Shown here in pieces: positions 1 through 47,045 of a stretch of 63,002 bases of DNA. Within the stretch, counting starts at the first letter, position 1. The number at the start of each line of letters is the position of its first letter. The notes under the pieces are model-generated. The model had not been told where the DNA came from and ran no database searches. It saw only the letters and a program-made list of their open reading frames with translations. The stretch comes from a virus, in the IMG/VR virus record IMGVR_UViG_3300045988_138661. The stretch is one strand, 5' to 3'. The translations under genes and the position numbers were made by a program.

Positions 1-167
1 GAAAAATGATGCCTTATTTTTGGCTTACTCTTGGCGTTCTCGCCAAAGTGACCGGACGAACTGCCGGTGGTAATTATCGCTATGAAACGGTTGTCTCTAA
101 GGAAATCGGACTTGTGACCGCAGACTGGGTCAATACTCATCTGCTGTAAAAGAAAGGGGAAACAAAA

Positions 168-425
168 ATGAAAGTAAATTTTGGCACTAAGGGTCAGGTT
201 CAGATTATTAACATTCTCAGCGGTGGCACATTCACCGACCCGCGCACCAATGGTAACGGTATGGGAATGTATCTCAAAATTGACAGCCATAACAACACGC
301 CGTTTGTCCGGTCGAGAGGTTCGCAGTTTTGCTATGCTGTGAATCTTGAAACGGGTCAGATTCGCGAGTTCCCGCGCGAAAAGATGGTAACGCCAGTCAA
401 GACCGAGGTCAATGTAATTGGCTAA
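168..425 (+). CDS. hypothetical early protein (85 aa)
   Basis: ORF with RBS-like aaagggga upstream, TAA stop, followed by hairpin terminator. Confidence 0.55.
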   Translation: MKVNFGTKGQVQIINILSGGTFTDPRTNGNGMGMYLKIDSHNNTPFVRSRGSQFCYAVNLETGQIREFPREKMVTPVKTEVNVIG

Positions 426-433
426 AAGAAAAT

Positions 434-460
434 CTCCCCAAAAATGGGGAGATTTTTTTG
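434..460 (+). terminator. rho-independent terminator (ctccccaaaaatggggag + T-run)
   Basis: perfect inverted repeat followed by tttttttg seen in sequence. Confidence 0.7.
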
Positions 461-545
461 TTTACTTTGACTATTGACAAAGTTCCTTGAATGTGATATA
501 ATGGGCCGGCCGTTTCCGCGCGCTACGGCCGGAATTCACCATTAT
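457..545 (+). promoter_or_regulatory. sigma70-like promoter (ttgaca..17..tataat) immediately followed by GC-rich hairpin ccggccg-N15-cggccgg (copy a of 4)
   Basis: -35/-10 spacing and the inverted repeat read directly; paralogous copies at 2772, 4878, 5394. Confidence 0.55.
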
Positions 546-786
546 ACACCCTGCCAGCATTTTTGTCAAGAGAAATTTCGCACAAATTTCAATTTTATTT
601 TTTCCCGTTATTTGGTCATTTTACCAATAGACAAATCAAGACCAATCTGTTATACTACATAATGTCAGGAGGAAAGAGTAAGACCTACGGAAAGGCAGTT
701 CCCTTGACCATTATACCAGAAGCCGACACAAGGAATGTTCCAAGCGTGGCATGCCGAACAAACTTTCAAAAAAAAGTTTGAAAAAC

Positions 787-840
787 CCCTTGACAAACCG
801 CTCGACTTATGGTATAATGAATACATCAAATGAGAGAGGT
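787..840 (+). promoter_or_regulatory. sigma70-like promoter (cttgacaaa...tggtataat)
   Basis: TTGACA and TG-extended TATAAT with ~17 bp spacer. Confidence 0.5.
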
Positions 841-977
841 AAAAACAAGATGACTTCTAATGCTCGCCCACCGCCTTAAAAACTGATTTGATTTCTTGAC
901 TTAAAGATTGTAGATAGAGGTATAAACAAGATGTATAGTAATAAAGCTCGCGACCGCCCCTAAAAAAATTCGCAAAA

Positions 978-1036
978 CCTATTGACAACCTGCTCCGCAT
1001 ATGATATAATAACTACATCAAAGACAAGGACAGTCT
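978..1036 (+). promoter_or_regulatory. sigma70-like promoter upstream of 1062 CDS
   Basis: ttgacaacc ...17... tgatataat. Confidence 0.5.
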
Positions 1037-1061
1037 CAAAAACCAGAAAGGAATTGATACT

Positions 1062-1436
1062 ATGGCTACTTCTACTACTAAGAAGCTCACTAAGCGTGAC
1101 CGTTTCGAGGCTCTGCTCAAAATGTCCGAGGTTCAGGCAAATCCTGATATGGTGGCGTTCATCGAGCATGAGATTGAACTGCTCGCCAAGAAGAACGCGG
1201 GCGACAAGAAGCCCACGGCTAAGCAGATGGAGAACGACGCCGTGAAGCAGGTCATTCTGGACGAGATGATCGCAAACCCTGACAAGCTCTACACTGTAAC
1301 CGAACTCATCAAAGGCGTTCCCGAACTTGCGGAGTATTCCAATCAGCGCGTTTCCGCTCTTCTGCGCCAGATGATTGACGCCAACGCGGTTGTCAAGACG
1401 GTTGACAAGCGCAAGTCCTACTTCTCCCTCGCGTGA
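1062..1436 (+). CDS. hypothetical protein, paralog family A (124 aa)
   Basis: ORF; RBS gaaaggaattgatactATG identical to that of 3411 CDS; ~75 percent identical to 3411..3790 product. Confidence 0.7.
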   Translation: MATSTTKKLTKRDRFEALLKMSEVQANPDMVAFIEHEIELLAKKNAGDKKPTAKQMENDAVKQVILDEMIANPDKLYTVTELIKGVPELAEYSNQRVSALLRQMIDANAVVKTVDKRKSYFSLA

Positions 1437-1480
1437 GGGCAAGGGCAGGGGATAAAAAAAATCCCCTGCCCTATAAAAAA

Positions 1481-1560
1481 ACTGTTGACAAACCAATAGC
1501 AAAGTGCTATACTATTATCAGAGGTTGAGAGAACGATGGTAAATCTCAATCTACTTTTCC
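1481..1560 (+). promoter_or_regulatory. promoter (ttgacaaacc..tgctatact) plus conserved 5-prime UTR stem-loop ggttgagagaacgatggtaaatctcaatc
   Basis: motif repeated at 4372-4400 ahead of another CDS; ttgaga/tctcaa inverted repeat. Confidence 0.45.
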
Positions 1561-1576
1561 AATAGGAGATGGTAAA

Positions 1577-2353
1577 ATGGGTATTGATAGGCGCAAAAAC
1601 TACGGCATTATGCTGGACACGGAAACCGCAAACACCATTCAAGACGGCGATAAGCTGGATATGTCAAATGTGCTTCCATACGACTTCGGCTGGGCGGTCA
1701 TTGATTCCAAGGGAAATGTTTATGAAACTCATTCTTTTGTGAATCGCGATATTTTCTGCTACGAGCGCGACCTCATGCAGTCTGCCTACTACGCCGACAA
1801 AATTCCCCGCTATGTCGAGGATATTAAGAACGGCACTCGCATTATGGCTGACCTTTACGAAATTCGTCTTGCATTCTGTGAATGTGTCGAGCGTTATAAC
1901 TGCTCTTTTGTCTGCGCTCATAATATGCGGTTCGACCTTAACGCCTGTAATAACGCGCAAAGATGGGATACGAAAAGCAAGTATCGCTATTTTTTCCCCT
2001 ACGGCCTTGAAGTTTGGGACACGCTGAAAATGGCGCGACAGGTTATTGGCAAAATGCCCACTTACCGCGACTATTGCGAAAAGAATGGCTACAAGACCAA
2101 AAACGGACAGCTCCGTTTTACAGCAGAAATTCTTTACCGCTTTATCAGCGGTGAAGATAGTTTTGATGAGTCCCACACGGGACTTGAAGATGTCCTCATT
2201 GAAGTTGAGATTTTGCGCTATTGCGTCCGACAGCACAAGAAAATGGAAAAGTCCCTTTTCAAAAATTCCACGGTGGAACGCCCTAAGCCTACCGAGTTTC
2301 AGCGCGCGCTCATGCGAAACATTAAGGAAAATCCTATGATAAACATGAGCTAA
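1577..2353 (+). CDS. DEDD-family 3-5 exonuclease (DnaQ/RNase T-like), 258 aa
   Basis: Exo I MLDTETAN, Exo II AHNMRFDLN, Exo III HTGLEDV motifs in order. Confidence 0.7.
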   Translation: MGIDRRKNYGIMLDTETANTIQDGDKLDMSNVLPYDFGWAVIDSKGNVYETHSFVNRDIFCYERDLMQSAYYADKIPRYVEDIKNGTRIMADLYEIRLAFCECVERYNCSFVCAHNMRFDLNACNNAQRWDTKSKYRYFFPYGLEVWDTLKMARQVIGKMPTYRDYCEKNGYKTKNGQLRFTAEILYRFISGEDSFDESHTGLEDVLIEVEILRYCVRQHKKMEKSLFKNSTVERPKPTEFQRALMRNIKENPMINMS

Positions 2354-2411
2354 AAAAATAGGGAATAGGGCTTGACAAGTCCTATTCCCTATGGTATAAT
2401 CAATACATCAA

Positions 2412-2708
2412 ATGAAAGAGGTGTTCCACATGACTGCTAAACAAGTCCTTTTTGTAGTCCCCGATGAAAATGACCCTCACATGGGCATTTTAATCAACCA
2501 TGACTATGTTATCTGCGCTGAATGCGGTGGCGTCTTTGAAGTCGATGAGGTTTTCATCATCAAGACCTATGACGTTTGGGTAAACTTTGAAGACGAAATT
2601 GCGGACGAGCTTGACCTGCTGACCGCAAAAGACATTGGCAAAGAGCTGAATAGCAAGGGAGAATCCGGTCGTTACGCATGGAAAGAAGCAATTAAGAGGG
2701 AGTTTTGA
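2412..2708 (+). CDS. hypothetical protein (98 aa)
   Basis: ORF after promoter cttgacaagtc..tggtataat and RBS gaaagaggtg. Confidence 0.6.
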   Translation: MKEVFHMTAKQVLFVVPDENDPHMGILINHDYVICAECGGVFEVDEVFIIKTYDVWVNFEDEIADELDLLTAKDIGKELNSKGESGRYAWKEAIKREF

Positions 2709-2746
2709 AAATGGATTTGGATTTCCACCTGCTGGAATAAATAAAA

Positions 2747-2777
2747 AACTGCCCAAAAATGGGCAGTTTTTTTTTGT
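2747..2777 (+). terminator. rho-independent terminator (ctgcccaaaaatgggcag + T9)
   Basis: inverted repeat plus T-run. Confidence 0.7.
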
Positions 2778-2860
2778 CTATTTTGCCTATTGACAAATGC
2801 GGATTTTTGTGATAAAATGGTCGGCCCGCTAACGCCCAAAGCGGGCCGAACTCACCATTA
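2772..2860 (+). promoter_or_regulatory. promoter plus GC hairpin, copy b (ggtcggcccgct...agcgggccgaac)
   Basis: same architecture and downstream conserved tcaccattatac...ttttgtcaagagaaa as copy a. Confidence 0.5.
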
Positions 2861-3410
2861 TACCACGCCCCGCCAATTTTGTCAAGAGAAAAGTTGCACA
2901 AAAATGAAAAAAATTTTTTCCCGTAATTTGGCTATTCTGTCAATTGTATTCTGTGGGCAATCTGCTATAATAGATAATGTCAGGAGGGAACAGTGAATTG
3001 CCGAACGGCTTCGCTGATGGGTGTGATAACTCGGTAACTGACCCGTTTTCAAAGAAATTTGAAATTCCCTCTTGACAAACCCCTGCGAGTGTGCTACAAT
3101 AGAAAATGTCAAGAGGGAGTAGCCCAAGAAATCCGAGGGCGCGCGACCTTGAGAAAGTACAGGAAGTAAACATAATACACCACGTTGTAAAGCCAAACGT
3201 TGAACGCGAAAGTGAGTGAGAGTGAGCCAGCTATACTTGAAGCGATTTTCGCTGACAGATAGACTGAGCCAACGGGCAATACCTTATCCGTCAGGTCGGG
3301 GTAGTAATTCGTGTAAAAAGTTTGCGAAACCTCTTGACAAACATTTCAAAGTGTGGTACACTTAATATATCAAAAGGGTAGCGACCTACCGCCAAAGAAA
3401 GGAATTGATA

Positions 3411-3790
3411 CTATGTCTACTTCTACTACTAAGAAGCTCACTAAGCGCGACCGTTTCGAGGCTCTGCTCAAGATGTCCGAGGTTCAGGCTGACCCCGCCA
3501 TGGTTGAGTTTATCAATCACGAGATTGACCTGCTGGCTCGCAAGAATGCCGGTGATAAGAAGCCGACCGCGAATCAGATTGCCAACGATGGTTACAAGGA
3601 CATTATCTTTGCCGAGCTGTCCGCCAATCCTGACAAGCTCTACACTGTGACCGAACTCATTAAGACTGTGGACGGTTTGGGTGACCTCTCCAATCAGCGC
3701 GTCTCCGCTCTTCTGCGTCAGATGATTGAAGCGAACGGTGTCGAGAAGATTGTCGACAAGCGCAAGTCCTATTTCCGTCTCGCCCACTGA
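3411..3790 (+). CDS. hypothetical protein, paralog family A (126 aa)
   Basis: start chosen at ATG after shared RBS gaaaggaattgatact, rather than the ORF-track start 3353. Confidence 0.7.
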
Positions 3791-3890
3791 TTCAGCGGGA
3801 GCGCCTAAAAAAAATTAGGCGCTCCCAAAAATTTCTCTTGACATTTGCTAACGGCGGTGTTATAATCATACTTGAAAGGGGGCAAAGAAA

Positions 3891-4298
3891 ATGCCTAAAA
3901 TGAGTGAAAAAGACTTTCAGGCAAAGATTGATAATCTGATGAAAAAGTTGGATTGTACTGCCGAGGAAGCAAAAGAAATTCTCATGGACGATGATGACAT
4001 TGACCATGGAATTGCCAAAGATTTTGACCTGTCCGCGGAAAAGCTCAAAGAAGCTAACAAGTACTCTAAGACTGGAACGCGCAAAGCGCCGACCGCTTAT
4101 AAGTTTGAGAAGCGACAGCGCAAGGAAAATCCCACAAAACGCTCGATTATCGCTGAACTTGCAACTTTTTTGCGTGAAAACAGCGAAAATGCGTGTGAAA
4201 ACGTGGAAATCACGAACATTGAACGCATGATTGCGTTCCATGTGGGCGAAAATGACTATGAATTGACCCTGATTCAGAAGCGAAAGCCCAAAAACTGA
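3891..4298 (+). CDS. hypothetical protein (135 aa)
   Basis: promoter tcttgacattt..tgttataat, RBS aagggggc, TGA stop, terminator follows. Confidence 0.6.
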   Translation: MPKMSEKDFQAKIDNLMKKLDCTAEEAKEILMDDDDIDHGIAKDFDLSAEKLKEANKYSKTGTRKAPTAYKFEKRQRKENPTKRSIIAELATFLRENSENACENVEITNIERMIAFHVGENDYELTLIQKRKPKN

Positions 4299-4311
4299 CA
4301 AAAAAGGGTGA

Positions 4312-4342
4312 AAAACCGCTGAAAAATGCGGTTTTTCACCCG
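4312..4342 (+). terminator. rho-independent terminator (aaaaaccgctgaaaaatgcggttttt)
   Basis: inverted repeat seen. Confidence 0.6.
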
Positions 4343-4415
4343 AAAACAAGTCAAAAAATGCAAAAAATAATGGTTGAGAGAACGATGGTAAACCTCAATC
4401 AATAGAGAGGATTTT

Positions 4416-4832
4416 GTGTCAATGGAAAAGATTACTATTAAACTACGCCGATTTAAGGACGGTAGACCGCCTGTTTCAATGGAGTTTATGCCCGATTGTG
4501 GCGAGAATCTGAAAGACGTTCAAGCGGTCTACTTTTTCAAGTTTTACAACAACAACAAACTTGAATTTAATAAAGTAGGCACTTCCGCAAAAGACGTTGT
4601 AGGGCGCTTGCGTGATGAAATCGGCGAGTATTCAAAAAAGTATCCTATCACGCGAGTTGAAATTCATCGAATCCGCTCTTGCGGAGACTACCCCGCCGAG
4701 GGCGCGGAAAGCGCGTTGCGTGCGGAACTGATTAGACGCTATCCCAAAGCGTTTAGAAAGAATGACCGCTTTTTTAATGTGGACATTAGCCCCACGGTGT
4801 TCGATGAAATCGTAAGCGCATTTCTTGCATAA
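4416..4832 (+). CDS. hypothetical protein (138 aa)
   Basis: preceded by the ggttgagagaacgatggtaaacctcaatc UTR motif; TAA stop; terminator follows. Confidence 0.6.
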   Translation: MSMEKITIKLRRFKDGRPPVSMEFMPDCGENLKDVQAVYFFKFYNNNKLEFNKVGTSAKDVVGRLRDEIGEYSKKYPITRVEIHRIRSCGDYPAEGAESALRAELIRRYPKAFRKNDRFFNVDISPTVFDEIVSAFLA

Positions 4833-4842
4833 ATATTCAATC

Positions 4843-4872
4843 AGCAGGTTGACTAAAACCTGCTGATTTTTT
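4843..4872 (+). terminator. rho-independent terminator (cagcaggtt...aacctgctg + T8)
   Basis: inverted repeat plus T-run. Confidence 0.7.
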
Positions 4873-4877
4873 TTGTG

Positions 4878-4960
4878 CATTTTGCCTATTGACAAGCGGG
4901 GAAAAGTGTGGTATAATTGGCCGGCCGTAAACTGACGCCACGGCCGGAATTTCGTATCAA
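4878..4960 (+). promoter_or_regulatory. promoter plus GC hairpin, copy c (ttggccggccgt...acggccggaa)
   Basis: ttgacaagc..tggtataat then inverted GC repeat. Confidence 0.5.
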
Positions 4961-5066
4961 TAGGCAAGTTCAACAATTTTTGAGCGAAATGTTTGTGCAT
5001 TTTGTCTATTGATTTTATCCCGAAAATGTAGTATCTTATAATTACAGAAAGGGAGAGTGATACAAA

Positions 5067-5192
5067 ATGCGGTGTGTTGAATGTCCGTACTACTACTGGA
5101 ATGACTACGTGGAGATGGAAATCTGCCATGCTGACCCCAACTGGCCCGCCCCTTGCGAATACGATGATGAACCAGAGGAGGAAGAAAAATGA
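5067..5192 (+). CDS. small Cys-rich acidic protein (41 aa)
   Basis: RBS aaagggagag; CxxC pairs; below ORF-track cutoff. Confidence 0.4.
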   Translation: MRCVECPYYYWNDYVEMEICHADPNWPAPCEYDDEPEEEEK

Positions 5193-5344
5193 AACATTAT
5201 CATTGCCCTGTAAATGGTTGGGATTGTCCTTACTACACAGACGACCCTCAGCCTTGTATGTGTACGCTGGAAGACCCATTCCACGATTGCGATGATTTCG
5301 CATCGATGTGGGATGAAGATGATGATTACACAGATTATGATTAA
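5189..5344 (+). CDS. small Cys-rich acidic protein (51 aa)
   Basis: ATG overlaps upstream TGA; RBS gaggagga; CP..C motifs. Confidence 0.4.
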   Translation: MKHYHCPVNGWDCPYYTDDPQPCMCTLEDPFHDCDDFASMWDEDDDYTDYD

Positions 5345-5349
5345 AATTT

Positions 5350-5390
5350 TCGGGCAGAAAAATCTGCCCGAATTTTTTTTTGTGTAAAAT
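5350..5390 (+). terminator. rho-independent terminator (cgggcagaaaaatctgcccg + T-run)
   Basis: inverted repeat plus T-run. Confidence 0.6.
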
Positions 5391-5393
5391 GCC

Positions 5394-5480
5394 TATTGAC
5401 AAAGCCTGCGGTTTGTGGTATAATAAAGGCGGGGCTGGCCGGGCCGGGGTGGGACGTCCCGGCCCGATTTCCCGATCGGT
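5394..5480 (+). promoter_or_regulatory. promoter plus GC hairpin, copy d (ggccgggccgg...ccggcccg)
   Basis: ttgacaaagc..tggtataat then GC inverted repeat. Confidence 0.45.
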
Positions 5481-5745
5481 ATACCCATATGCGAAATTTT
5501 TCATACTTCTAGCACCTCTCCATATGGCCCAAAAAAATCCCGAAAATTGACTTTTTATAAAAAATATGTTATAATGATAAAAAAAGACTTTTTTAAGCCC
5601 GCGTAGGATCATATGCCTTTATGATTAATTAAAAATTGCTTCGCCCTTACATTGTTTCACGCGTATGTTTTCATTCAAAAAAATCTTGACATTTTTAAAA
5701 AAAAAGTATATAATATATATAGAAAATAAGAAAAGAGGTATTCAT

Positions 5746-6123
5746 ATGGATATGAATGATATTGTTGCTCGTCTGAAAAATGGTGAGGACGCTCAGACTA
5801 TTGCGGACGAGATGGAAAATGCTCTGAATGATGCGATTAAGCAGGTGGAGAAGGAAACCAAGCAGGCCGATCGGAAGACCGCGCTCGCGCAAGAAATCGC
5901 CGATCGGATTAACGAGTATGCCGCTCTTAATGGCCACAAGGATTCCGCGTTGACCGCGTCCGATGTGGAGACTATCTTTGCTGAGGTTTACGGTCTTATG
6001 AACGGGGTCAACGATCTTATTGACGCGCTTTTCCCCAAGAGCACACAGGTAAAGGTTAAGAAGGTCAAGAAAACTGATGATGATGTAATTGCCGAGTTTT
6101 TGAACACTTTCATTAATAAGTGA
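5746..6123 (+). CDS. hypothetical protein (125 aa)
   Basis: first copy of AT-rich promoter-leader consensus upstream (5686-5745); start at ATG after RBS agaggt. Confidence 0.55.
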   Translation: MDMNDIVARLKNGEDAQTIADEMENALNDAIKQVEKETKQADRKTALAQEIADRINEYAALNGHKDSALTASDVETIFAEVYGLMNGVNDLIDALFPKSTQVKVKKVKKTDDDVIAEFLNTFINK

Positions 6124-6185
6124 ACAATGTGTCGGGTGAGATATTTTTCATCCTAAGAATTGACAATTTCACCAAGAATTGCCTA

Positions 6186-6226
6186 ATATGAAAGAAGAGA
6201 GACTAAAAAAAGTCTCTCTTTTTTTT
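6186..6226 (+). terminator. rho-independent terminator (agagagacttttttt agtctctctt + T-run)
   Basis: inverted repeat seen. Confidence 0.6.
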
Positions 6227-6467
6227 AGGTTCGGAGATCGGAGACGGGAAAAAGTGGTTGGTGGTTTAGTAAAACCGATCGGCACCACACTCTCGCAATT
6301 TTCGCTATTTTAGCAATTTCTACAATTATTCCACGTCGTCCGAATTATCCAAACCTTTAATTACTATCCAAAAGCGAATCAACCAATATAGGTCTATTAA
6401 CGGTCTCTTCCAGCGTTCCATAGGCAATATCCAACAGCCACACCAATTAAAAACCAAATAATACCAC

Positions 6468-36231: not shown

Positions 36232-38016
36232 GTGAATAATTATAATCAACATTATAAAGAAATAAGTCCTATTGAGACTGTTAATAATATTAAAAATTTT
36301 TTAGAAGGACGCGGATTTACTTGTGTTGAGGAAGCTTTACGACAAGAACAATCAACTACTTGGAGTCTTGTATTAAATCTTGAATACAAAGGACATTTTG
36401 TGCTAAAAACTTATGGCAAAGGTGTTACAAAAGAATTCGCCAGAGCTTCTGGTTATGCGGAAATGTATGAGCGTTTTTGTAATGGAATGCACTATCTTTG
36501 TAATTCTTTTCTTTGTGCGGAAAAAATTGAATTAAATAGAAAAAATTATGGTTATTCTTTGTTTAAAAATGAAAAGCCTTTAAGTTATAAAGAGGCACTT
36601 GGAGGAGAAGATACTCTTTTATATAAACTTTTTGATCGTTTGAATAAGAAAGATAATGGTTTATTAGAGGATTATTTTAAAACTATTTATAATAATGAAT
36701 TTTTTGGAATACCATTTAAAGGAGTCAACATTAATAAAACTTTATATATGGATCCTCGTCTTCTTCAACGTTATCATGGTAGTTCGGGAATGGCAGCCGG
36801 CAATACTTTTAATGAAGCCTTAAATCAAGGTTTATCTGAAATTTTCGAGCATTATGTTTTAAGTAATTTTTATATTGATATTGATAATAAAGATTTTTAT
36901 TTTTATGATACAGATAGTATTAAAGATGAAAAATTAAAAAATATTATTAGTGCGATTAAATCTCATAATAATAACTTTTATATTATTGATATGTCAAGAA
37001 CTTATAATGTGCCTGTTATGGTAGCAATTTTGATTAATAAATATAGTGGTACTGTAGCTATTAATTTTGGTGCTTTCCCTGTATTTGAAATTGCAGTTGA
37101 GCGAGTTTGTACTGAAATGTATCAAAATTGTTTTTCTTTTGATACAAGAAAAACTTCAGTTGTATCTCCGTATTATTCTTTAGATAAAGAAGATATGGTT
37201 ATAGATGGCGGTTCTTGTATTACAAATCTTAATACTTTTCCTGAGAGTTTATTCTTGAATAAGAAATTTGTAAATACTATTAATAAAGATGTATTTTTAT
37301 CTTATACTGATAAAAATTACTCTAATGATGAAATCTTAGAGCATAATAAAAAGATTGCTACTAATATTGGAGCAGATATTTATTGTGCTGATGTATCTTT
37401 AATTGATACCGTATCTGCGATTAGTATTTATGTTGATAATCTTGACGGGCTATGGAAATCTTTCTTTGATAGATGCCAAGGAGTTAAAGAAACTGGAGAA
37501 GCAATTACTATAACTAAAAATAAACATTTGGCCATTAAAAACTATTTAAATAATAAAGATAAAGTATATGATGTAATTAAATATTGTCTTGATTATTATA
37601 ATATTACTTTTGACAAAATTGTAGATAGATTTTGTGGTTTACTTACTCATGGAGATCAATTAGTTGCTTATAATAATAAAAATATATTATTAACACCTAA
37701 TGAGATGTTTGTTAAAAACCTTTATATGGATGCAACAGGATATTTATTAGAAGATGAAGGATTTTCTTTAGATATTTCAGTTAGTTGTTTTTATACTTAT
37801 TATAAAAAATATTTAACTTTATTAGCATATGTTCACAGTAGAAAATATACTAAAGAAGATATGATTAAAATTTTCAAAGAATTTGATTATACTTTTACTG
37901 ATGAAGATTTTAAACATATTACGGATAGAAAATATTTAGTAGAAAAATGTATTTTAGAGCCTATGTATAATACATTTAGAAGCAATGATTTTAAAGAAAT
38001 GATTAAAAATTATTAA
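36232..38016 (+). CDS. YcaO-domain protein (594 aa)
   Basis: N-terminal YGKGVTKEFARASGYAEMYERF matches YcaO signature GKG.T...A..SA..E..ER. Confidence 0.6.
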   Translation: MNNYNQHYKEISPIETVNNIKNFLEGRGFTCVEEALRQEQSTTWSLVLNLEYKGHFVLKTYGKGVTKEFARASGYAEMYERFCNGMHYLCNSFLCAEKIELNRKNYGYSLFKNEKPLSYKEALGGEDTLLYKLFDRLNKKDNGLLEDYFKTIYNNEFFGIPFKGVNINKTLYMDPRLLQRYHGSSGMAAGNTFNEALNQGLSEIFEHYVLSNFYIDIDNKDFYFYDTDSIKDEKLKNIISAIKSHNNNFYIIDMSRTYNVPVMVAILINKYSGTVAINFGAFPVFEIAVERVCTEMYQNCFSFDTRKTSVVSPYYSLDKEDMVIDGGSCITNLNTFPESLFLNKKFVNTINKDVFLSYTDKNYSNDEILEHNKKIATNIGADIYCADVSLIDTVSAISIYVDNLDGLWKSFFDRCQGVKETGEAITITKNKHLAIKNYLNNKDKVYDVIKYCLDYYNITFDKIVDRFCGLLTHGDQLVAYNNKNILLTPNEMFVKNLYMDATGYLLEDEGFSLDISVSCFYTYYKKYLTLLAYVHSRKYTKEDMIKIFKEFDYTFTDEDFKHITDRKYLVEKCILEPMYNTFRSNDFKEMIKNY

Positions 38017-42336: not shown

Positions 42337-42508
42337 AAAATTTTTTGACATTTTAAAAAAAATAATATATAATATATTTATAAAATAAAGAAAGACCTTT
42401 ACAGCAAAAATAACTTCCAGAATAAACTAATGATTAAGTCATAATCCTTTAAGATTAAAATAATGGTTCAACTCCATTTTCCGGACAAAGTTAAGGTCTT
42501 GTTTTTAT

Positions 42509-42583
42509 AGGCGTCTGGTGTAACGGTAGCATGCGGGTCTCCAAAACCTTGCGGTGTGGGTTCGAATCCTACGACGCCTGCCA
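42509..42583 (+). tRNA. tRNA-Trp (CCA)
   Basis: cloverleaf by hand: acceptor aggcgtc/gacgcct, anticodon loop ctCCAaa, T-loop ttcgaat, CCA encoded. Confidence 0.7.
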
Positions 42584-42667
42584 TTTTAGACAAAAAGAAC
42601 TTTTTTGATTTTATTAAAAATATATAATATAATATATATAGAAAGTTGAGAAAGGAGAAAATAAATA

Positions 42668-42850
42668 ATGAATATTGAAGTTGGTAATTCTTATTGTTTT
42701 GTCCCTTATCGTGGTCGTTGTTATCGTAGACAGTATCTTAAATGTACTGTTATTCGAGTATTAAATTATCAGATTGAAGTCCTTGATGAGCATGGTGAAA
42801 AATGGCTTCTTTCAGAAGATGATTTAATGCCAATTCAAAGACCTTATTGA
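42668..42850 (+). CDS. hypothetical small protein (60 aa)
   Basis: consensus promoter-leader directly upstream. Confidence 0.5.
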   Translation: MNIEVGNSYCFVPYRGRCYRRQYLKCTVIRVLNYQIEVLDEHGEKWLLSEDDLMPIQRPY

Positions 42851-43002
42851 CATTTTATAAAAAATATTATATAATATTTATATAAGATGAGGAAAGAAAA
42901 AAGAAAATAAAAAACTTTGGGTAAAAGAGAAAAGTTGATTTTTTAAAAAAAATATAATATAATAAATATATAAAGTAAGGATTTTAAAAGTCCTTCTTTT
43001 AT

Positions 43003-43550
43003 GGGAGTGTAGCTCAGTTGGTTAGAGCACGCGGCTGTTTACTTGACCTTATCATTTTCTTATAAAAAAATGAAATGAATAGTAAACAAAAAGGTAATAT
43101 TACCGAGCTTGAAACAATGTTAGCATTTATGAAACTTGGTTATAATGTTCTTACTCCTTACGGAGATTGTGAGCGTTATGATTTTGTGGTTGATGTAAAT
43201 GGTAAATTTATTAGAATTCAAGCTAAAACATCGCGAACCGAAGATGAAGGAGCTTCTTTTATTTTTTCTGGTAGAAGTTGCCATAGAAAAGATGGAAGAA
43301 TAGTTCATCATCAATATACTAACGAAGAAATTGATTACTTCGTAACTACTTTTAATGGAAAATGTTATTTGATTCCAGTGGAAGAGTGCGGAGCAGATAA
43401 AAGACTTCGTATTCTTCCACCTAAAAACAATCAAGTAAGAGGTATTACTTGGGCGAAAGATTATGAGTTGGAGGAAGTAGTAAGAAAATGGTAAGCTGAT
43501 GTGTAAGCAACCGCGGTTTGTCGTGAGTTCGAGTCTCTCCTCTCCCGCCA
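43003..43550 (+). tRNA. tRNA gene (Asp-GUC if spliced) split in the anticodon loop by a ~469-nt insertion
   Basis: 5-prime half gggagtgtagctcagttggttagagcacgcgg + 3-prime half ccgcg..gagttcgagtctc..ctctccc g cca; anticodon stems cgcgg/ccgcg complementary. Confidence 0.5.
43075..43494 (+). CDS. ORF inside the tRNA insertion; possible PD-(D/E)xK-type nuclease (139 aa)
   Basis: YDFVVDVNGKFIRIQAK resembles D..(D/E)xK core; location inside a tRNA gene. Confidence 0.35.
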   Translation: MNSKQKGNITELETMLAFMKLGYNVLTPYGDCERYDFVVDVNGKFIRIQAKTSRTEDEGASFIFSGRSCHRKDGRIVHHQYTNEEIDYFVTTFNGKCYLIPVEECGADKRLRILPPKNNQVRGITWAKDYELEEVVRKW

Positions 43551-43790
43551 TTGGGGCGTTAACACGGATTTTGTAAGTTTAAACTACCACCGATCGAAAG
43601 AGTATGTGGCTTGCGGAAAACGCCCGACTAAATATAAGGAAGCGAAGTAAAACTTATTGTGAAATAGTAGCTATACTCACATTAATCAAGGCTATGGGTT
43701 CTGGGAATCCAAAAGAGTAAAAGTTGGTTCGAGTCCTAACGATTGACGAAGTTCGAATCTTCGCGATGTGGGTTATAAAACTCTTTATTT

Positions 43791-43867
43791 GCTGGTGTAG
43801 CCGAATTGGCATAGGCGAATGATTTAGGATCATTAATCTGAAGGTTCGAGTCCTTTCTCCAGCACCA
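43791..43867 (+). tRNA. tRNA with anticodon UAG (Leu by anticodon) but short variable loop; A73
   Basis: acceptor gctggtg/ctccagc, anticodon arm aatga-tttagga-tcatt, T-loop ttcgagt. Confidence 0.55.
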
Positions 43868-43954
43868 GTCCCTCCCTGGGAATGCGTTGAAGGCTTGCGA
43901 ACTTTGAACGCAGGTGGTTGGCAACTCCATCTATACATAAATAAGTTGCGTTTT

Positions 43955-44033
43955 GGGCTTCGGGACTGCATGGCGTGGTCGTCTGTCTTGCACACAGAAA
44001 ATCAGGTGAGTTCGATTCTCACGAGGTCCACCA
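43955..44033 (+). tRNA. tRNA-Ala (UGC)
   Basis: G3-U70 pair present, anticodon loop cttgcac, T-loop ttcgatt, A73 CCA. Confidence 0.55.
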
Positions 44034-44433
44034 TTATATGGTTATATGGTGTAAAGAGTAAGCACGGCGGTTAAATAAACCGCAAATTTAGGAGCATTGC
44101 CTAATATAACCGATTATATGATTGGTGATAAAAGCAGCCAGAAATATTATCTTATTAATTAAAACTTAATACAATATACTAAACGATATAATAGATAAGG
44201 TATATTAATAAAATTTATATACAATAAGATAATATATACAAAATGCTAATAGTGATTTTGGTTCCAGCGCTAGGAAAGTTTTTCCCACTACGAAGAGAAA
44301 ATTTGAAGAGTTAGCGTAGTCTTGATAATTATGTCTTAAATAATTATCCCTTTTTGGCTCATAACCTTTTTTTGGATAAAAAATTATATTATATTTACCG
44401 TGATGCCGCGGAGGGACGGCCGCCCTAAAGTGC

Positions 44434-44600
44434 GATTAAGATTAGAAAGAAGTTGGAAGATCTTCTTAAAACTTCCATTAGATTAGAAAGAAGTTGGAAG
44501 ATCTTCTTAAAACTTCCATTAGATTAGAAAGAAGTTGGAAGATCTTCTTAAAACTTCCGTTAGATTAGAAAGAAGTTTTGAGGATTCTTCTTAAAAATCC
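44434..44600 (+). repeat. tandem array of four ~39-nt hairpin-forming repeats (gattagaaagaagttggaagatcttcttaaaacttccatta x3 plus diverged 4th)
   Basis: direct repeats read in sequence; each contains palindrome gaagatcttc within gaagtt..aacttc. Confidence 0.7.
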
Positions 44601-44610
44601 TCTTAGTTAT

Positions 44611-44698
44611 GCTTTGATGGCGGAATTGGCAGACGCGATCGGCTCAAACCCGATTATCCGAATGGATGGTGAGAGTTCAAGTCTCTCTCGAAGCACCA
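44611..44698 (+). tRNA. tRNA-Leu (CAA), class II
   Basis: acceptor gctttga/tcgaagc, anticodon loop ctCAAac, long variable arm atccgaatggat, T-loop ttcaagt, A73 CCA. Confidence 0.7.
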
Positions 44699-44878
44699 GT
44701 CACCTCCTTTAATTAGTAGGTTAATGTGAAAATGATAAGCATTTGTGAGTATTGACGGCGGTGGAGTGGCGACCATCGTTAACAAATATCGCTTCTTGGT
44801 TGGTCTTTTAATCTTTTGACATTTTATAAAAAATAAGTTATAATATTTATAGAAAGTTAAGAAAGGAAGATTTAAATT

Positions 44879-44986
44879 ATGTATAATGATTACTATGAAA
44901 GCTATGCTTGTGAGATTCAGAGTGATGAATATGCTGCTTATCAGGATCTTTCCCTTTATGAAGATGAGGATGAATACCGTGAATAA
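44879..44986 (+). CDS. small acidic peptide (35 aa)
   Basis: ATG at consensus distance from promoter-leader aagga; alternative overlapping frame 44886..45134 exists in ORF track. Confidence 0.35.
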   Translation: MYNDYYESYACEIQSDEYAAYQDLSLYEDEDEYRE

Positions 44987-45138
44987 AAGTTATATGAAAA
45001 AGAACAAGGAAGAGCTTAATGAGTATCTTCAATTGTTTCGGCGCAGAGGATTTAAAGTTCCTGCGAAGAAAGGCAAAGGCTCATTTAAGCGAAAACAAAA
45101 GCACAAAAATCAAGATTATGATAGATGTGCTTAAATAT

Positions 45139-45212
45139 GGCCTCATCTACTAATTGGCTTAGGTGGCAACCCTCTCAAGGTTGAGATGTCAGTTCGAATC
45201 TGGCTGAGGTCA
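45139..45212 (+). tRNA. tRNA-Glu (CUC) candidate
   Basis: acceptor ggcctca/tgaggtc, anticodon arm caacc-ctctcaa-ggttg, T-loop ttcgaat; D-stem needs G-U pairs. Confidence 0.45.
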
Positions 45213-45282
45213 GGGATATAAATTCTACAACCTTCACGTGGTATATCCTGTTTTTACTAATGTAGAATAAAATAAATAATAT

Positions 45283-45360
45283 GCTCCTGTCGACAAGTGG
45301 GCTTAAGTCACTAGCCTTTCACGCTAGAGTCGTTGGGTTCGAATCCCACCAGGAGTACCA
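45283..45360 (+). tRNA. tRNA-Glu (UUC)
   Basis: anticodon arm ctagc-ctttcac-gctag, T-loop ttcgaat, CCA. Confidence 0.6.
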
Positions 45361-45364
45361 TATG

Positions 45365-45439
45365 GCCCTGGGGGCAGTCAGCAGAGCCGCCAGCCTGTCA
45401 CGCTGGAGATAGCGGGGTCGGCACCCGTCGGGGTCGCCA
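45365..45439 (+). tRNA. GC-rich tRNA-like element, possibly tRNA-Asp (GUC) with atypical T-loop gtcggca
   Basis: acceptor ggccctg/cggggtc, anticodon arm ccagc-ctgtcac-gctgg, G73 CCA; ~70 percent GC vs ~35 percent surroundings. Confidence 0.4.
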
Positions 45440-45599
45440 TACGTTGGCATCATTCTTATGTCTATGTTAGTGCGCAGGCGGTCGCACAAAAGCCTCTACA
45501 AAAGTTGGCCATTTGATGAGGTCTATTAAGAATTTTGGGACGATGGGTTAGAAAGTCCAATAGATATAATGGTCGCGAATATTATATCTATCCCATTTT

Positions 45600-45675
45600 C
45601 GGTCAATAGCTTAATTGGTAGAGCATTGTTCTCATAAGACAAGGAATATTAGTTCGATTCTAATTTGACCGACCA
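45600..45675 (+). tRNA. tRNA-Met (CAU), elongator-type
   Basis: acceptor cggtcaa/ttgaccg all Watson-Crick, loop ctCATaa, T-loop ttcgatt, CCA. Confidence 0.7.
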
Positions 45676-45676
45676 T

Positions 45677-45755
45677 TGCGGAAGAGTGAAACGGATTTAT
45701 CATGCCAGGCTCATAACCTGCGCGATATTGGGTTCGACTCCCATTTCCGCAACCA
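45677..45755 (+). tRNA. second CAU-anticodon tRNA (Met or Ile2-lysidine type)
   Basis: acceptor tgcggaa/ttccgca, loop ctCATaa, T-loop ttcgact, CCA. Confidence 0.6.
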
Positions 45756-45787
45756 TAAGACACACACAGCAATCATTTTCTATTGAA

Positions 45788-45860
45788 AATATTTTAGCTC
45801 ATTTGGTAGAGCATTTGTCTGTTAAACAAACTGTAGTTGGTTCAAGTCCAACAAATATTT
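45788..45860 (+). tRNA. tRNA-Asn (GUU), all-AU acceptor stem, no encoded CCA
   Basis: aatattt/aaatatt acceptor, D-arm gctcatttggtagagc, loop ctGTTaa, T-loop ttcaagt. Confidence 0.6.
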
Positions 45861-45905
45861 CATTTGTGTCTTGTAAATTAAAATAATCCAAAAGGAGATA
45901 TCTAA

Positions 45906-46109
45906 ATGAAGTTTAAGTTTAAGCCCGGCGACAAGGTTTATTCTAAGAAGTACGGTAAGGGCTTTTGCCATCAGGTTGATGAACAGGATAAGGATTTTAC
46001 TTATGATTTCCATTTTAAGGATAGCACAATCATTTGGATGTCCCGATATGATGGTGAGCGTTATGTAAAGTTCCGCAGACCGAAGAACGTGGAACCCGCA
46101 AACGCATAA
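45906..46109 (+). CDS. hypothetical basic protein (67 aa)
   Basis: RBS aaaaggagat. Confidence 0.5.
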   Translation: MKFKFKPGDKVYSKKYGKGFCHQVDEQDKDFTYDFHFKDSTIIWMSRYDGERYVKFRRPKNVEPANA

Positions 46110-46323
46110 TTTATCTTTCCTTTCTTTTTGAATAATTAAGGCGCTAACAGCAAACTTTAAAACATCAATGTACGAAATACATATGCTTAGGATTGTTTAT
46201 AGCGTCTTGTTCTATTTATATTGTTGATGTAGTACGATAAATAAAATATCACATTCTTTTAGTCAATTTTAAAGGAAGAATGACTACGTGGAGAATCGGG
46301 AATCGTAGCAATATAAATATTAT

Positions 46324-46399
46324 GGGTGGATAGCTCAGCTGGTAGAGCGTAGGATTGAAGATCCTAGCGTCGGCAGTTCGATTCTGTCTCCGCCCACCA
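46324..46399 (+). tRNA. tRNA-Phe (GAA)
   Basis: gggtggatagctcagctggtagagc D-arm, loop ttGAAga, T-loop ttcgatt, A73 CCA. Confidence 0.75.
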
Positions 46400-46808
46400 A
46401 AAGACCAACAAATGAGGAACCTCTTTGCTGCTCGAGGCTGTTGGAATGCCTGTTAGAAAGGCTACTCTTCTATATATTTAGATATATAGAAACAAAAGAC
46501 TATACAATAGAGAGAGTCTTTTACATCTAGTTCATTTTCTTACTTATCTTTCTGTTTGATTTCCCCTTTCGTTTGATATATAGATTGTTGTTTTCTCTCA
46601 CTTCCATAGAAATGAATTGTTTTTCTACTCTCTATTTTGTTTCATAAAATTAAATAAAAAAGGAGGATTATCTGATATGTTTAAAGATGTTGATGATTTG
46701 ATTTTCGGCGATGAGCGTGAATTTTGTCCTAGCGAACGATAAGCGCGGTCGCCTACCTAATGCTACCATAGGCTGGTTCCAAGTCCAGAAAAGCAGAGGA
46801 GGTAGAAT

Positions 46809-47045
46809 ATGAAAAATATTTTAAGTTATAAAAATCCTTGTTTTAGCGGTCAAGAAATTCTTGATTGGGCTAATTATCAAGTAAATAATAAAACTTCTCA
46901 TTATAAACAGGGATTGAGAGTTTTAAATTTATTTGGTAATATTAAACCTGATAGAAAGTATTATATTTTTAGTAATTATCGCACTTGGCATAGTTATTGT
47001 GGATATAGTATTAAGCATAAACTAATCATATATAGGTATAAATAA
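46809..47045 (+). CDS. hypothetical protein (78 aa)
   Basis: RBS agaggaggt. Confidence 0.45.
   Translation: MKNILSYKNPCFSGQEILDWANYQVNNKTSHYKQGLRVLNLFGNIKPDRKYYIFSNYRTWHSYCGYSIKHKLIIYRYK

What the first reader, a model, noticed from the sequence alone, without database searches (positions are those of the whole stretch)
457..5480. Early module: GC-richer DNA with four promoter plus +1 GC-hairpin repeats
The first ~6 kb is visibly more GC-rich than the rest. Every gene has a textbook TTGACA-17-TATAAT promoter and an intrinsic terminator. Four promoters (457, 2772, 4878, 5394) are followed at the transcript start by a GC-rich inverted repeat (for example ccggccg-N15-cggccgg), and two of them by a further conserved ~60-nt sequence (tcaccattatac...ttttgtcaagagaaa). 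These look like operators or RNA elements (anti-termination or regulatory) duplicated as cassettes.
Basis: seen in the sequence. Interest (0 to 1): 0.55.

Follow-up and report, generated by a model that had tools for sequence, protein, structure and literature searches.

The report
Early-promoter GC hairpin boundary cassettes
Four early-gene boundaries of this large uncultured phage carry a consensus host-type promoter followed at once by a conserved 27-base GC hairpin, twice with a second promoter firing head-on; the hairpin is a selected nucleic-acid structure, not a repressor site, and the cassettes resemble the portable promoter/stem-loop units of T4-like phages.

Summary
Bases 1-6000 have 42-46% GC against 20-40% elsewhere. 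The region carries 14 near-perfect TTGACA-17-TATAAT promoters. Exactly four copies of one element lie in the 63 kb: hairpins at 506-532, 2822-2848, 4921-4947 and 5440-5466.

Each hairpin has an 8-bp GC stem and an 11-nt loop, normally 2-4 nt after the -10 hexamer. The "conserved 60 nt" is a perfect promoter on the minus strand (541-569, 2857-2885). It faces the plus promoter and has the hairpin at its own start site.

The element recurs across more than 100 related phage contigs of 20-400 kb, mostly 80-200 kb. About 16 stem sequences all stay complementary, and every covariance-model match lies on the gene strand. That excludes an operator.

Hairpins also persist where one or both promoters are lost. 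Reverse-promoter units mostly precede a winged-helix gene, which has two paralogs here. A cassette gain or loss has its junction inside the units.

Best reading: boundary cassettes like the promoter/stem-loop units (PeSLs) of T4-like phages. The hairpin caps the 5' ends of transcripts from either promoter and marks unit borders. The function is inferred, not shown. Rfam has no such family.

The parts
426..459 (.). Bidirectional intrinsic terminator of gene 168-425. Its T-run runs into the upstream region of promoter P+1. On the minus strand it would end the antisense RNA.
   Evidence: One search lists it on both strands; fold.
474..502 (+). P+1: consensus promoter TTGACA-17-TATAAT with TG. The -10 hexamer ends 3 nt before the hairpin.
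506..532 (+). Hairpin 1: CCGGCCGT-TTCCGCGCGCT-ACGGCCGG, an 8-bp stem with an 11-nt loop.
   Evidence: covariance-model hit 498-544, 51.8 bits, E = 8e-13.
541..569 (-). P-1: 12/12 consensus promoter on the minus strand, facing P+1. Its -10 lies 8 nt from the hairpin.
428..536 (-). Predicted ~110-nt antisense RNA from P-1: 5' hairpin, spacer, then terminator. The ends are inferred, not mapped.
   Evidence: Fold -40.5 kcal/mol, z = -6.0.
1062..1436 (+). 124-aa winged-helix protein, paralog 1. It is preceded by a promoter array at 628-656, 790-818 and 982-1010.
   Evidence: association with reverse-promoter units.
2743..2772 (.). Bidirectional terminator before unit 2.
   Evidence: 13 pairs on both strands.
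2790..2818 (+). P+2: TTGACA-17-TAAAAT with TG.
2822..2848 (+). Hairpin 2: CGGCCCGC-TAACGCCCAAA-GCGGGCCG.
   Evidence: covariance-model hit 2814-2860, E = 7e-12.
2857..2885 (-). P-2: 12/12 consensus promoter on the minus strand, facing P+2.
2738..2852 (-). Predicted ~115-nt antisense RNA from P-2.
   Evidence: Fold -44 kcal/mol, z = -6.2.
3413..3790 (+). 125-aa winged-helix protein, paralog 2 (77% identical to paralog 1). Promoter array at 3072-3100 and 3334-3362.
4839..4868 (+). Terminator before unit 3.
4889..4917 (+). P+3: 12/12 consensus promoter.
4921..4947 (+). Hairpin 3: CCGGCCGT-AAACTGACGCC-ACGGCCGG.
   Evidence: covariance-model hit, E = 8e-12.
4957..4976 (-). Remnant of a reverse promoter (upstream element plus -35 TTGATA, no -10), 9 nt after hairpin 3.
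   Evidence: Inverted repeats I13/I14/I16; sequence.
4925..5435 (+). Insertion/deletion cassette: two Cys-rich mini-ORFs (5067-5192, 5189-5344), a terminator (5349-5372) and promoter P+4. It is present here and absent from L002, L007, L009, L012 and L013. The junction lies inside the promoter-hairpin unit.
5396..5424 (+). P+4: 12/12 consensus promoter.
5440..5466 (+). Hairpin 4: CGGGCCGG-GGTGGGACGTC-CCGGCCCG. Here it lies 15 nt after the -10; in orthologs it lies 3 nt after.
   Evidence: covariance-model hit, E = 6e-9.

Best explanation
The four sites are copies of a composite boundary cassette of the phage's early, host-RNA-polymerase-dependent module.

Anatomy, which the sequence shows:
1. 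The terminator of the preceding gene.
2. A T-rich 'TTTGTGCA' upstream element.
3. A consensus extended -10 promoter.
4. A 27-nt GC hairpin (8-bp stem, 11-nt loop, 3' flank A-R-T-T-T) that begins 2-4 nt after the -10.

In units 1 and 2 a second consensus promoter on the opposite strand has its -10 hexamer 7-8 nt from the same hairpin. The two promoters therefore fire head-on, with start sites about 27 nt apart.

Mechanism, which is inferred: the hairpin acts as a base-paired single strand, most likely RNA. The plus transcript would start inside the 5' arm and carry a blunt 5-6-bp terminal helix. The minus transcript would start 2-4 nt before the full hairpin and run about 110 nt to the upstream bidirectional terminator.

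A 5'-terminal stem-loop with 4 or fewer unpaired bases is the classical protection against 5'-end-dependent decay. The relevant enzymes are RppH and RNase E in E. coli, and RNase J1 and RNase Y in Firmicutes. The same stable helix would mark a transcript boundary for read-through RNA.

The two open complexes cannot coexist, because their footprints overlap. Units 1 and 2 should therefore show promoter competition upstream of the winged-helix genes.

At the genome level, the repeated cassettes act as portable linkers at which gene cassettes are gained and lost, as PeSLs do in T4-like phages.
For: Structure under selection:
- There are 64 unique copies with 16 stem sequences. 98.6% of cells are paired, and 104 cells have changes on both sides against 33 +/- 4 in shuffles. 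Pairing drops to 28-46% when the 3' partners are slid; one search gives the same result.
- An unbiased test used an IUPAC pattern that does not enforce pairing at positions 2/26, 4/24, 5/23 and 8/20. It returned 112 unique matches in viral contigs. Watson-Crick pairing was 109, 109, 110 and 87 (plus 18 G-U) of 112, against 25-50% expected.

Specificity: four copies in 63 kb, all in the early module. All 91 covariance-model matches in relatives lie on the gene strand.

Fixed geometry: the distance from the plus -10 to the hairpin is 3 nt (50 cases), 2 nt (20) or 4 nt (11). From the minus -10 it is 7 nt (28) or 8 nt (27).

Folding: 6-bp terminal hairpins form on plus RNAs started at the predicted site. 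The minus RNAs fold as 5' hairpin plus terminator, z = -6.

The reverse promoter is real. Its hexamers and TG are invariant while its spacer varies among about 15 genomes and 3 paralogous units.

Linker behaviour: window 4925-5435 is absent from five relatives, and the junction lies inside the promoter-hairpin unit. L003 shows an intermediate state.

Precedent: PeSLs are strong sigma70-like promoters joined to stem-loops. One subclass has the stem-loop just downstream of the -10, and PeSLs mediate modular shuffling (PMC2839356).
Against: - About half of the copies in the wider family have no recognisable consensus promoter on either side, yet keep perfect, covarying stems. The hairpin's function therefore cannot depend on sitting at a transcript's 5' end.
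- Single mismatches in stem positions 1-7 show no excess of G-U on the plus strand: 4 G-U, 3 A-C and 3 other. For an RNA-only constraint an excess would be expected.
- The loop is a constant 11 nt, GC-rich, with a semi-conserved nnnCGnnYGnn pattern. A simple stability hairpin does not need this.
- Hairpin promoters are never directly upstream of an ORF.
- No transcript ends were mapped. All start sites are inferred from promoter geometry.
Confidence: 0.4

Rival explanations
1. Attenuator/terminator, the function shown for PeSL stem-loops. The hairpin plus its A-R-U-U-U(U) tail stops RNA that reads through the upstream terminator. The unit's own promoter starts inside the 5' arm, so its transcripts lack the full hairpin and escape.
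For: - The 3' flank A-R-T-T-T is the most conserved flank: A is invariant and TT is at least 90%.
- Units without a reverse promoter have longer T-runs. AGTTT occurs 86 times, and the mean T-run is 4.0-4.1 against 3.1 in units with both promoters.
- Every unit sits just after a gene end.
- The tight 2-4-nt spacing from -10 to hairpin fits an 'own transcripts escape' design.
- PeSL stem-loops terminated as well as rrnB T1 (PMC2839356).
Against: - In this window the tails are poor: AATTCACC, AACTCACC, AATTTCGT and ATTTCCCG.
- The terminator scan did not call any of the four.
- A canonical strong terminator already lies 30-50 nt upstream of each unit.
- Plus RNAs still keep a 5-6-bp GC helix.
Confidence: 0.2
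2. DNA-level structure. The palindrome is used as a cruciform or single-strand DNA hairpin by a recombination, nicking or replication enzyme. It is the active site of the cassette shuffling rather than a transcript element.
For: - The mismatch spectrum is neutral, with no G-U preference. Pairing seems to matter equally on both strands.
- Hairpins persist without promoters.
- Geometry is constant at 27 nt, with invariant C1, G3, C6 and G7.
- Cassette junctions lie at the units.
- The PeSL authors speculated that their stem-loop is a recombination-protein target.
Against: - An 11-nt loop makes cruciform extrusion costly.
- All copies are co-oriented with transcription and carry an asymmetric flank.
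- No HUH, tyrosine or resolvase-type gene emerged among the conserved neighbours.
- Ordinary homologous recombination between 60-130-bp repeats explains the indel equally well.
Confidence: 0.13
3. Convergent-promoter switch with an antisense small RNA (units 1 and 2). P- makes a stable ~110-nt RNA whose 5' hairpin is the exact complement of the 5' hairpin of the P+ transcript. Promoter occlusion, plus pairing of the two hairpins, sets expression of the downstream winged-helix regulator, which may feed back through the TTGTGCAA sites.
For: - The face-to-face 12/12 promoters have only 38 bp between their -10 hexamers (502 to 541), so the polymerase footprints overlap.
- 39 of 56 units with a reverse promoter are followed by the winged-helix gene, against 11 of about 150 without one.
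- The pairing of a reverse promoter, a GC hairpin and a winged-helix gene also occurs in distant relatives such as L018, though with longer hairpins.
- The predicted fold matches MarR, ArsR and Fur-type repressors: pLDDT 85, and all top Foldseek hits are winged-helix proteins.
Against: - It does not explain units 3 and 4, or the many hairpins without a reverse promoter.
- In many relatives the minus RNA has no U-tract terminator.
- The overlap covers no ribosome-binding site.
- Binding of the protein to any site is untested, and the Foldseek E-values are weak (5e-3).
Confidence: 0.12
4. A nut/boxB-like or put-like RNA. The nascent hairpin loads a phage factor, or acts directly on RNA polymerase, so that transcripts from hairpin promoters read through the terminators that follow each early gene.
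For: - The hairpin is promoter-proximal, co-oriented and a covarying stem.
- There is a terminator after most genes.
- Promoterless copies would still work whenever they are transcribed.
Against: - Loops differ widely within one genome: TTCCGCGCGCT, TAACGCCCAAA, AAACTGACGCC and GGTGGGACGTC.
- The geometry is unlike boxB (5-bp stem, pentaloop) or put (two stems, about 70 nt).
- No arginine-rich N-like protein was found.
- Nothing in Rfam matches.
- The plus start site lies inside the stem, so part of the element is not transcribed.
Confidence: 0.08
5. Operator: the inverted repeat is the binding site of a dimeric repressor.
For: It is a palindrome overlapping +1 of strong promoters, and a winged-helix gene lies nearby.
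Against: - Four different half-site sequences occur in one genome and 16 across the family.
- The non-conserved positions covary perfectly between the arms. A protein site has no reason to do this.
- The centre-to-centre spacing of the half-sites is 19-20 bp, with an unconserved 11-13-bp middle.
Confidence: 0.03

Closest known systems
PeSLs (promoter-early stem-loops) of T4-type phages RB49 and phi1 (Arbiol et al. 2010, PMC2839356; Comeau et al. 2014, PMC4122927)
   Same: Both are strong sigma70-like early promoters with an AT-rich upstream region, joined to a GC stem-loop. Both are intergenic, lie in a plastic early region full of ORFans, and are repeated many times. Cassette gain or loss has junctions in the units. 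One PeSL subclass has the stem-loop just after the -10.
   Different: The phage lineage is unrelated and the hosts are probably Clostridia. The hairpin has one fixed geometry (8 bp plus 11 nt) and a fixed offset, rather than GGGG...CCCC stems at five different positions. A separate canonical terminator precedes each unit. A convergent second promoter shares the hairpin. The reverse-promoter units are linked to a winged-helix gene. Terminator activity is not evident from the sequence.
5'-terminal stem-loop mRNA stabilisers (E. coli ompA 5' hairpin; B. subtilis aprE and ermC leaders; phage SP82 5' stabiliser) - from established knowledge
   Same: A stable helix lies within 0-4 nt of the predicted 5' end of transcripts from both promoters.
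   Different: Those elements are single cases on defined mRNAs. Here there is a multi-copy, covarying family, and it also persists away from any promoter. No half-life data exist.
Face-to-face promoter switches and countertranscripts (coliphage 186 pR/pL; P22 Pant/Psar and sar RNA; ColE1 RNA I/RNA II) - from established knowledge
   Same: Convergent strong promoters make a short antisense RNA that overlaps the 5' end of the sense transcript. The overlap is a stem-loop. The arrangement lies next to a regulator gene.
   Different: The overlap is only about 27 nt and covers no ribosome-binding site or primer. The start sites are much closer together. The unit is present in several copies per genome. 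There is no lysogeny module.
SPO1 host-takeover module (Herelleviridae terminal redundancy) - from established knowledge
   Same: A dense run of small early genes, each with a near-consensus sigmaA promoter and a terminator. The exonuclease-like gene has its only cultured homologs in ~140-kb Enterococcus phages.
   Different: No +1 hairpin family is described there. The covariance model finds none in 24.7 kb of Enterococcus phage EF1 around the homologous gene.

Membership tests
PeSL (promoter-early stem-loop cassette) | Strong sigma70-like early promoter with an AT-rich upstream region | tested here: met
   11-12 of 12 hexamer matches, 17-bp spacer, TG, and a T-run upstream at all four sites.
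PeSL (promoter-early stem-loop cassette) | Adjacent stable stem-loop within the same ~100-bp intergenic motif | tested here: met
   An 8-bp GC stem lies 2-4 nt after the -10 (15 nt at site 4).
PeSL (promoter-early stem-loop cassette) | Concentrated in a plastic region, upstream of ORFans | tested here: met
   All four copies lie in 1-5500 and none in the other 57 kb. The neighbouring ORFs have no Pfam family.
PeSL (promoter-early stem-loop cassette) | Units are the junctions of cassette insertion, deletion or replacement between close relatives | tested here: met
   Window 4925-5435 is absent from five relatives, and both flanking units align to their single unit.
PeSL (promoter-early stem-loop cassette) | The stem-loop is an effective transcription terminator | not testable with these tools
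   By sequence criteria it does not look like one in this window. Only an assay can tell.
PeSL (promoter-early stem-loop cassette) | Member of the T4-type phage lineage (homology of the units) | tested here: not met
   There is no DNA match to any deposited phage. The only protein links are to Enterococcus phages. The resemblance is analogy, not homology.
Canonical intrinsic terminator | GC stem, loop of 3-8 nt, then at least 5 U in 8 nt | tested here: not met
   None of the four was called. The loop is 11 nt and the tails have 1-4 T.
Lambda-type nut site (boxA + boxB) | Short stem with a conserved pentaloop bound by an arginine-rich N protein, with boxA nearby | tested here: not met
   The loops are 11 nt and unconserved within the genome. 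Rfam has no match. An N-like gene was not found but was not searched for exhaustively.
Dimeric-repressor operator | Conserved half-site sequence shared by all sites of one genome | tested here: not met
   There are four different arms in the window, and the variable positions covary.
N4-type hairpin promoter (virion RNA polymerase) | 5-7-bp stem with a 3-nt loop and conserved sequence, recognised in single-stranded DNA | tested here: not met
   The loop is 11 nt, and the element is embedded in sigma70-type promoters.
5'-terminal stem-loop stabiliser | Helix within about 4 nt of the true 5' end, which prolongs half-life | tested here: inconclusive
   The geometry fits for both promoters, but start sites and half-lives are unmeasured. 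Promoterless copies do not fit.
Any Rfam family | Score at or above the family's gathering threshold | tested here: not met
   Only tRNAs pass in the window. In 1-6300 every match is below threshold and driven by terminators.

The most novel reading that the evidence does not exclude
The hairpin is the recognition element of an undescribed phage system. One form: a 5'-hairpin small RNA transcribed divergently from, and working with, the multi-copy winged-helix regulator, making a convergent-promoter toggle that times early gene expression. Another form: a structure-specific site at which early-gene cassettes are actively mobilised. Either would be a new class of phage regulatory or mobile element, shared by more than 100 large uncultured gut phages.
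Probability: 0.15. Interest if true: 0.75.

Novelty: new variant of a known kind. Interest (0 to 1): 0.5.

Why it matters
Early "host-takeover" regions of large uncultured gut phages are almost entirely uncharacterised. This work defines a compact, strongly covarying structured element that no RNA family library holds. It has fixed geometry relative to consensus host promoters and sometimes sits between head-on promoters.

If it controls transcript stability or unit insulation, it explains how dozens of tiny early genes are expressed independently. It could also supply portable promoter and 5'-cap parts for Firmicutes engineering.

If the cassettes are recombination linkers, PeSL-type modular shuffling extends from T4-like coliphages to an unrelated phage lineage. 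That would argue for a general solution to plastic early regions.

Tried and rejected
- **Rfam.** The gathering-threshold scan of the whole window and the E-value scan of 1-6300 found only tRNAs and sub-threshold hits driven by terminators.
- **Megablast of 1-6200 against deposited phages.** No match.
- **tblastn of the 694-aa ORF (59248-61332).** No match.
- **Operator hypothesis.** Rejected because of covariation.
- **Strand test by G-U versus A-C mismatches.** At first it looked biased: 18 G-U against 2 A-C at the closing pair. However, 15 of those G-U cases are one sequence lineage. Counted over distinct 27-mers, positions 1-7 give 4 G-U, 3 A-C and 3 other, which is inconclusive.
- **Palindromes in the loops.** They are enriched: 24% of loops have a palindrome of at least 6 nt, against 9% in shuffles. 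The nnnCGnnYGnn loop pattern explains this, so it was not taken as evidence for kissing dimers.
- **Enterococcus phage EF1, the nearest cultured source of the exonuclease homolog.** No hairpin units in 24.7 kb.
- **Scan of 185,579 bacterial and archaeal genomes.** Fully paired low-GC hits occur only on phage-like contigs binned with Clostridia-type metagenome-assembled genomes (MAGs). The remaining hits lie in high-GC genomes; those that are not paired look like chance, and the paired ones were not examined further. So the scan gave no sign of a host REP-like family, and only a weak host hint.
- **Literature searches for an identical arrangement.** None found. PeSLs are the nearest.
- **Pfam and PHROG scans of the early proteins.** Almost nothing.

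Full report
**Context**

The window is part of a large phage-like genome. All genes in 1-6150 are on the plus strand. Eighteen tRNA genes lie at 42-53 kb, including a CUA-anticodon suppressor.

The first 6 kb have 42-46% GC, against 20-40% for the rest. They hold small ORFs, almost all without a known family.

Close relatives (91-97% amino-acid identity) are IMG/VR contigs of 85-197 kb. More distant ones (44-63%) were also retrieved. The only cultured phages with a homolog of the exonuclease-like gene 1577-2353 are ~140-kb Enterococcus phages. Together with the TTGACA/TGnTATAAT promoters, this points to a Firmicutes host. Some related contigs are binned with Oscillospiraceae, Eubacterium and Lachnospiraceae MAGs. 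That is only weak evidence for the host.

Yes. The promoter scan finds 36 sites in 7 kb against 13 +/- 3 expected. Ten are perfect 12/12 matches with a 17-bp spacer, which chance cannot give.

Four promoters are followed by a GC inverted repeat:

| Promoter | Hairpin |
|---|---|
| 474-502 | 506-532 |
| 2790-2818 | 2822-2848 |
| 4889-4917 | 4921-4947 |
| 5396-5424 | 5440-5466 |

All four share one frame: an 8-bp stem of the form C-S-G-N-S-C-G-N, an 11-nt loop, G(G) on the 5' side and A-R-T-T-T on the 3' side. A covariance model built from relatives recovers exactly these four in 63 kb (E from 6e-9 to 8e-13) and nothing else.

**What the 'conserved 60 nt' is**

Read on the minus strand, the sequences at 569-541 and 2885-2857 are TTGACA-17-TATAAT, a 12/12 match. 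These promoters face the plus-strand promoters.

The gap between the two -10 hexamers is 38 bp, and the hairpin fills its middle. With starts about 7 nt after each -10 (an inference), the plus RNA begins inside the 5' arm. It keeps a blunt 5-6-bp helix. The minus RNA begins 2-4 nt before the complete hairpin.

The minus RNA would run about 110 nt to the upstream gene's terminator, which is bidirectional at both sites. Both predicted RNAs fold as 5' hairpin plus terminator with z = -6. Open-complex footprints of the two polymerases would overlap, so the promoters should compete. This follows from established knowledge of polymerase footprints.

**Conservation and covariation**

Sixty-four unique copies from the window and 23 loci carry 16 different stem sequences.
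- 98.6% of cells are paired.
- 104 cells are changed on both sides, against 33 in shuffles.
- Pairing collapses when the partners are slid.

That set was selected for pairing, so I ran a second test that did not enforce it. An IUPAC pattern fixed only the invariant bases and left four pair positions free. In the viral collection it returned 103 stretches from many contigs of 20-400 kb, mostly 80-200 kb, in more than 20 metagenomes. At the free positions, 109, 109, 110 and 105 (counting G-U) of 112 unique matches pair, against 25-50% expected. So pairing itself is under selection, which excludes a protein operator.

All 91 model matches in relatives lie on the gene strand. Offsets are tight. 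From the plus -10 to the hairpin they are 3 nt (50 cases), 2 nt (20) or 4 nt (11). From the minus -10 they are 7 nt (28) or 8 nt (27).

**What does not fit a simple '+1 RNA element'**

- In the wider family only about half of the copies have a consensus promoter on either side. Of 112 contexts, 28 have the plus promoter only, 18 have both, 15 have the minus only and 51 have neither. Stems are still perfect and varied.
- Several 'promoterless' flanks look like promoters that lost the spacer and -10 by a 10-25-bp deletion, leaving the -35 and the upstream motif next to the hairpin. Window 4957-4976 is one such remnant.
- Single mismatches show no G-U excess.
- The loop is GC-rich in an AT-rich genome, with a semi-conserved nnnCGnnYGnn pattern.

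Together these mean the hairpin has a role that outlives its promoters. The data cannot say whether RNA or DNA is the active form.

**Neighbours**

Clustering all ORFs beside the units shows that the commonest neighbour is the 124-aa family, with two paralogs in the window (1062-1436 and 3413-3790). Units that carry the reverse promoter are followed by this gene in 39 of 56 cases. Units without it are followed by the gene in 11 of about 150 cases.

The protein is predicted with pLDDT 85. Its C-terminal half has the helix-strand-helix-helix-hairpin order of a winged helix, and all top structural matches are MarR, ArsR, Fur or centromere-binding winged-helix proteins. The E-values are weak, about 5e-3.

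A palindromic motif, TTGTGCAA-N-TTGCACAA, lies beside many units and about 12 nt upstream of the -35 of hairpin promoters. It is a better operator candidate than the hairpin, but this is untested.

**Cassette turnover**

Compared with seven relatives, collinearity breaks at the units. The clearest case is window 4925-5435. It holds the rest of unit 3, two Cys-rich mini-ORFs, a terminator and the promoter of unit 4. It is missing from L002, L007, L009, L012 and L013. Their single unit has the left half of unit 3 and the hairpin and right flank of unit 4. L001 and L003 show a third state, with a promoterless second hairpin.

This is the signature described for PeSLs in RB49 and phi1. PeSLs are strong sigma70-like early promoters joined to stem-loops in hyperplastic regions. 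One subclass has the stem-loop just after the -10. Recombination between PeSLs excises or inserts ORFans (PMC2839356).

**Mechanism**

I commit to the following, at 0.4 confidence. The element is a PeSL-like boundary cassette. Its hairpin works as a base-paired single strand that forms the 5'-terminal helix of transcripts from either flanking promoter, and it marks the unit border for read-through RNA.

- Shown: the anatomy, the selection for pairing, the fixed offsets, the orientation, the restriction to the early module, and the cassette turnover.
- Inferred: the start sites, the existence of the RNAs, the stabilising effect, and the promoter competition.

The main rivals are:
- an attenuator role (0.2)
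- a DNA-level recombination or nicking site (0.13)
- a convergent-promoter and antisense switch tied to the winged-helix gene (0.12)
- nut-like antitermination (0.08)
- an operator (0.03)

**Novelty**

No Rfam family, deposited phage or paper in the searched library shows this element. It is analogous to PeSLs but not homologous to them.

It differs from PeSLs in four ways: one fixed hairpin geometry, a separate upstream terminator, the shared hairpin between head-on promoters, and the link to a winged-helix gene. I rate it a new variant of a known kind, of moderate interest.

Noticed in passing
window 1523-1551 and 4372-4400: A second conserved 5'-UTR element, GGTTGAGAGAACGATGGTAAAYCTCAATC (8-bp stem, 13-nt loop GAACGAUGGUAAA). 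It lies just upstream of the exonuclease-like gene and of gene 4416-4832. The exact 19-nt core is present in 49 of 140 fetched loci, including distant contigs. It may be a shared translational or stability element.
   Followed up: partly
window 1062-1436 and 3413-3790: Paralogous 124/125-aa proteins (77% identical) with a predicted C-terminal winged helix. More than 1500 homologs exist in metagenomes and none is named. Each is preceded by an array of 3-4 strong promoters spaced about 100-200 nt apart, with no ORFs between them.
   Followed up: partly
window 578-586(-), 2894-2902(-), 4872-4879(+), 4992-4999(+), 5379-5386(+); e.g. L038, L112 and L115 in relatives: The motif TTTGTGCA(A) lies about 12 nt upstream of the -35 of hairpin-type promoters in both orientations. 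In relatives it forms a perfect palindrome, TTTGTGCAAGTTGCACAAA, next to promoterless hairpins. It is a possible operator for a dimeric regulator.
   Followed up: partly
window 850-879 and 931-963: Two tiny ORFs with good Shine-Dalgarno sequences, MTSNARPPP* and MYSNKARDRP*, lie in a 30-nt direct repeat (D16) inside the promoter array. Pro-rich ends before the stop codon resemble ribosome-stalling leader peptides.
   Followed up: no
window 663-781, 2977-3075, 3106-3219: Three transcripts predicted to start directly at AATGTCAGGAGG or AATGTCAAGAGGG (repeat D8). They are either leaderless 32-39-aa ORFs beginning MSGG/MSRG, or 5' polypurine SD-like stabiliser sequences.
   Followed up: no
window 1443-1471 and 3797-3826: After each winged-helix paralog there is a GC hairpin with an A-rich loop and no T-tract (GGGCAGGGGAT-A8-TCCCCTGCCC and GGGAGCGCCTA-A8-TTAGGCGCTCCC). 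The scan does not call them terminators. They are conserved in relatives.
   Followed up: no
window 2358-2392: A 17-bp-arm hairpin (94% complementary) that contains the -35 of promoter 2372-2400. This is a terminator/promoter overlap of the kind seen in other PeSL subclasses (I12).
   Followed up: no
window 42416-52926: Eighteen tRNA genes, including a CUA-anticodon tRNA at 52191-52263 that would read TAG. This suggests stop-codon recoding in part of the genome.
   Followed up: no
window 36232-38016 and 56991-58229: A YcaO cyclodehydratase domain protein (E = 5e-28), and a protein with the N-terminal domain of the major tropism determinant Mtd (E = 2e-12). The YcaO protein lies in a 20-28% GC stretch (33-38 kb).
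   Followed up: no
L003 2072-2524 (upstream of the window's start in relatives); also L015 ~2808: An AbrB/SpoVT-like protein (MKATGIIRRIDDLGRVVIPKEIRRTL...) is encoded just before another hairpin unit. It is present in 57 of 134 loci. It is another candidate early regulator, but it lies outside this window.
   Followed up: no
L018 and L019 (55% relatives), e.g. L018 1893(-) and 5268(-): Reverse promoters there are followed by longer GC hairpins (10-14-bp stems, 13-21-nt loops). They then run antisense into tRNA genes. A strong GGAAAGGAGG sequence follows on the minus strand.
   Followed up: partly
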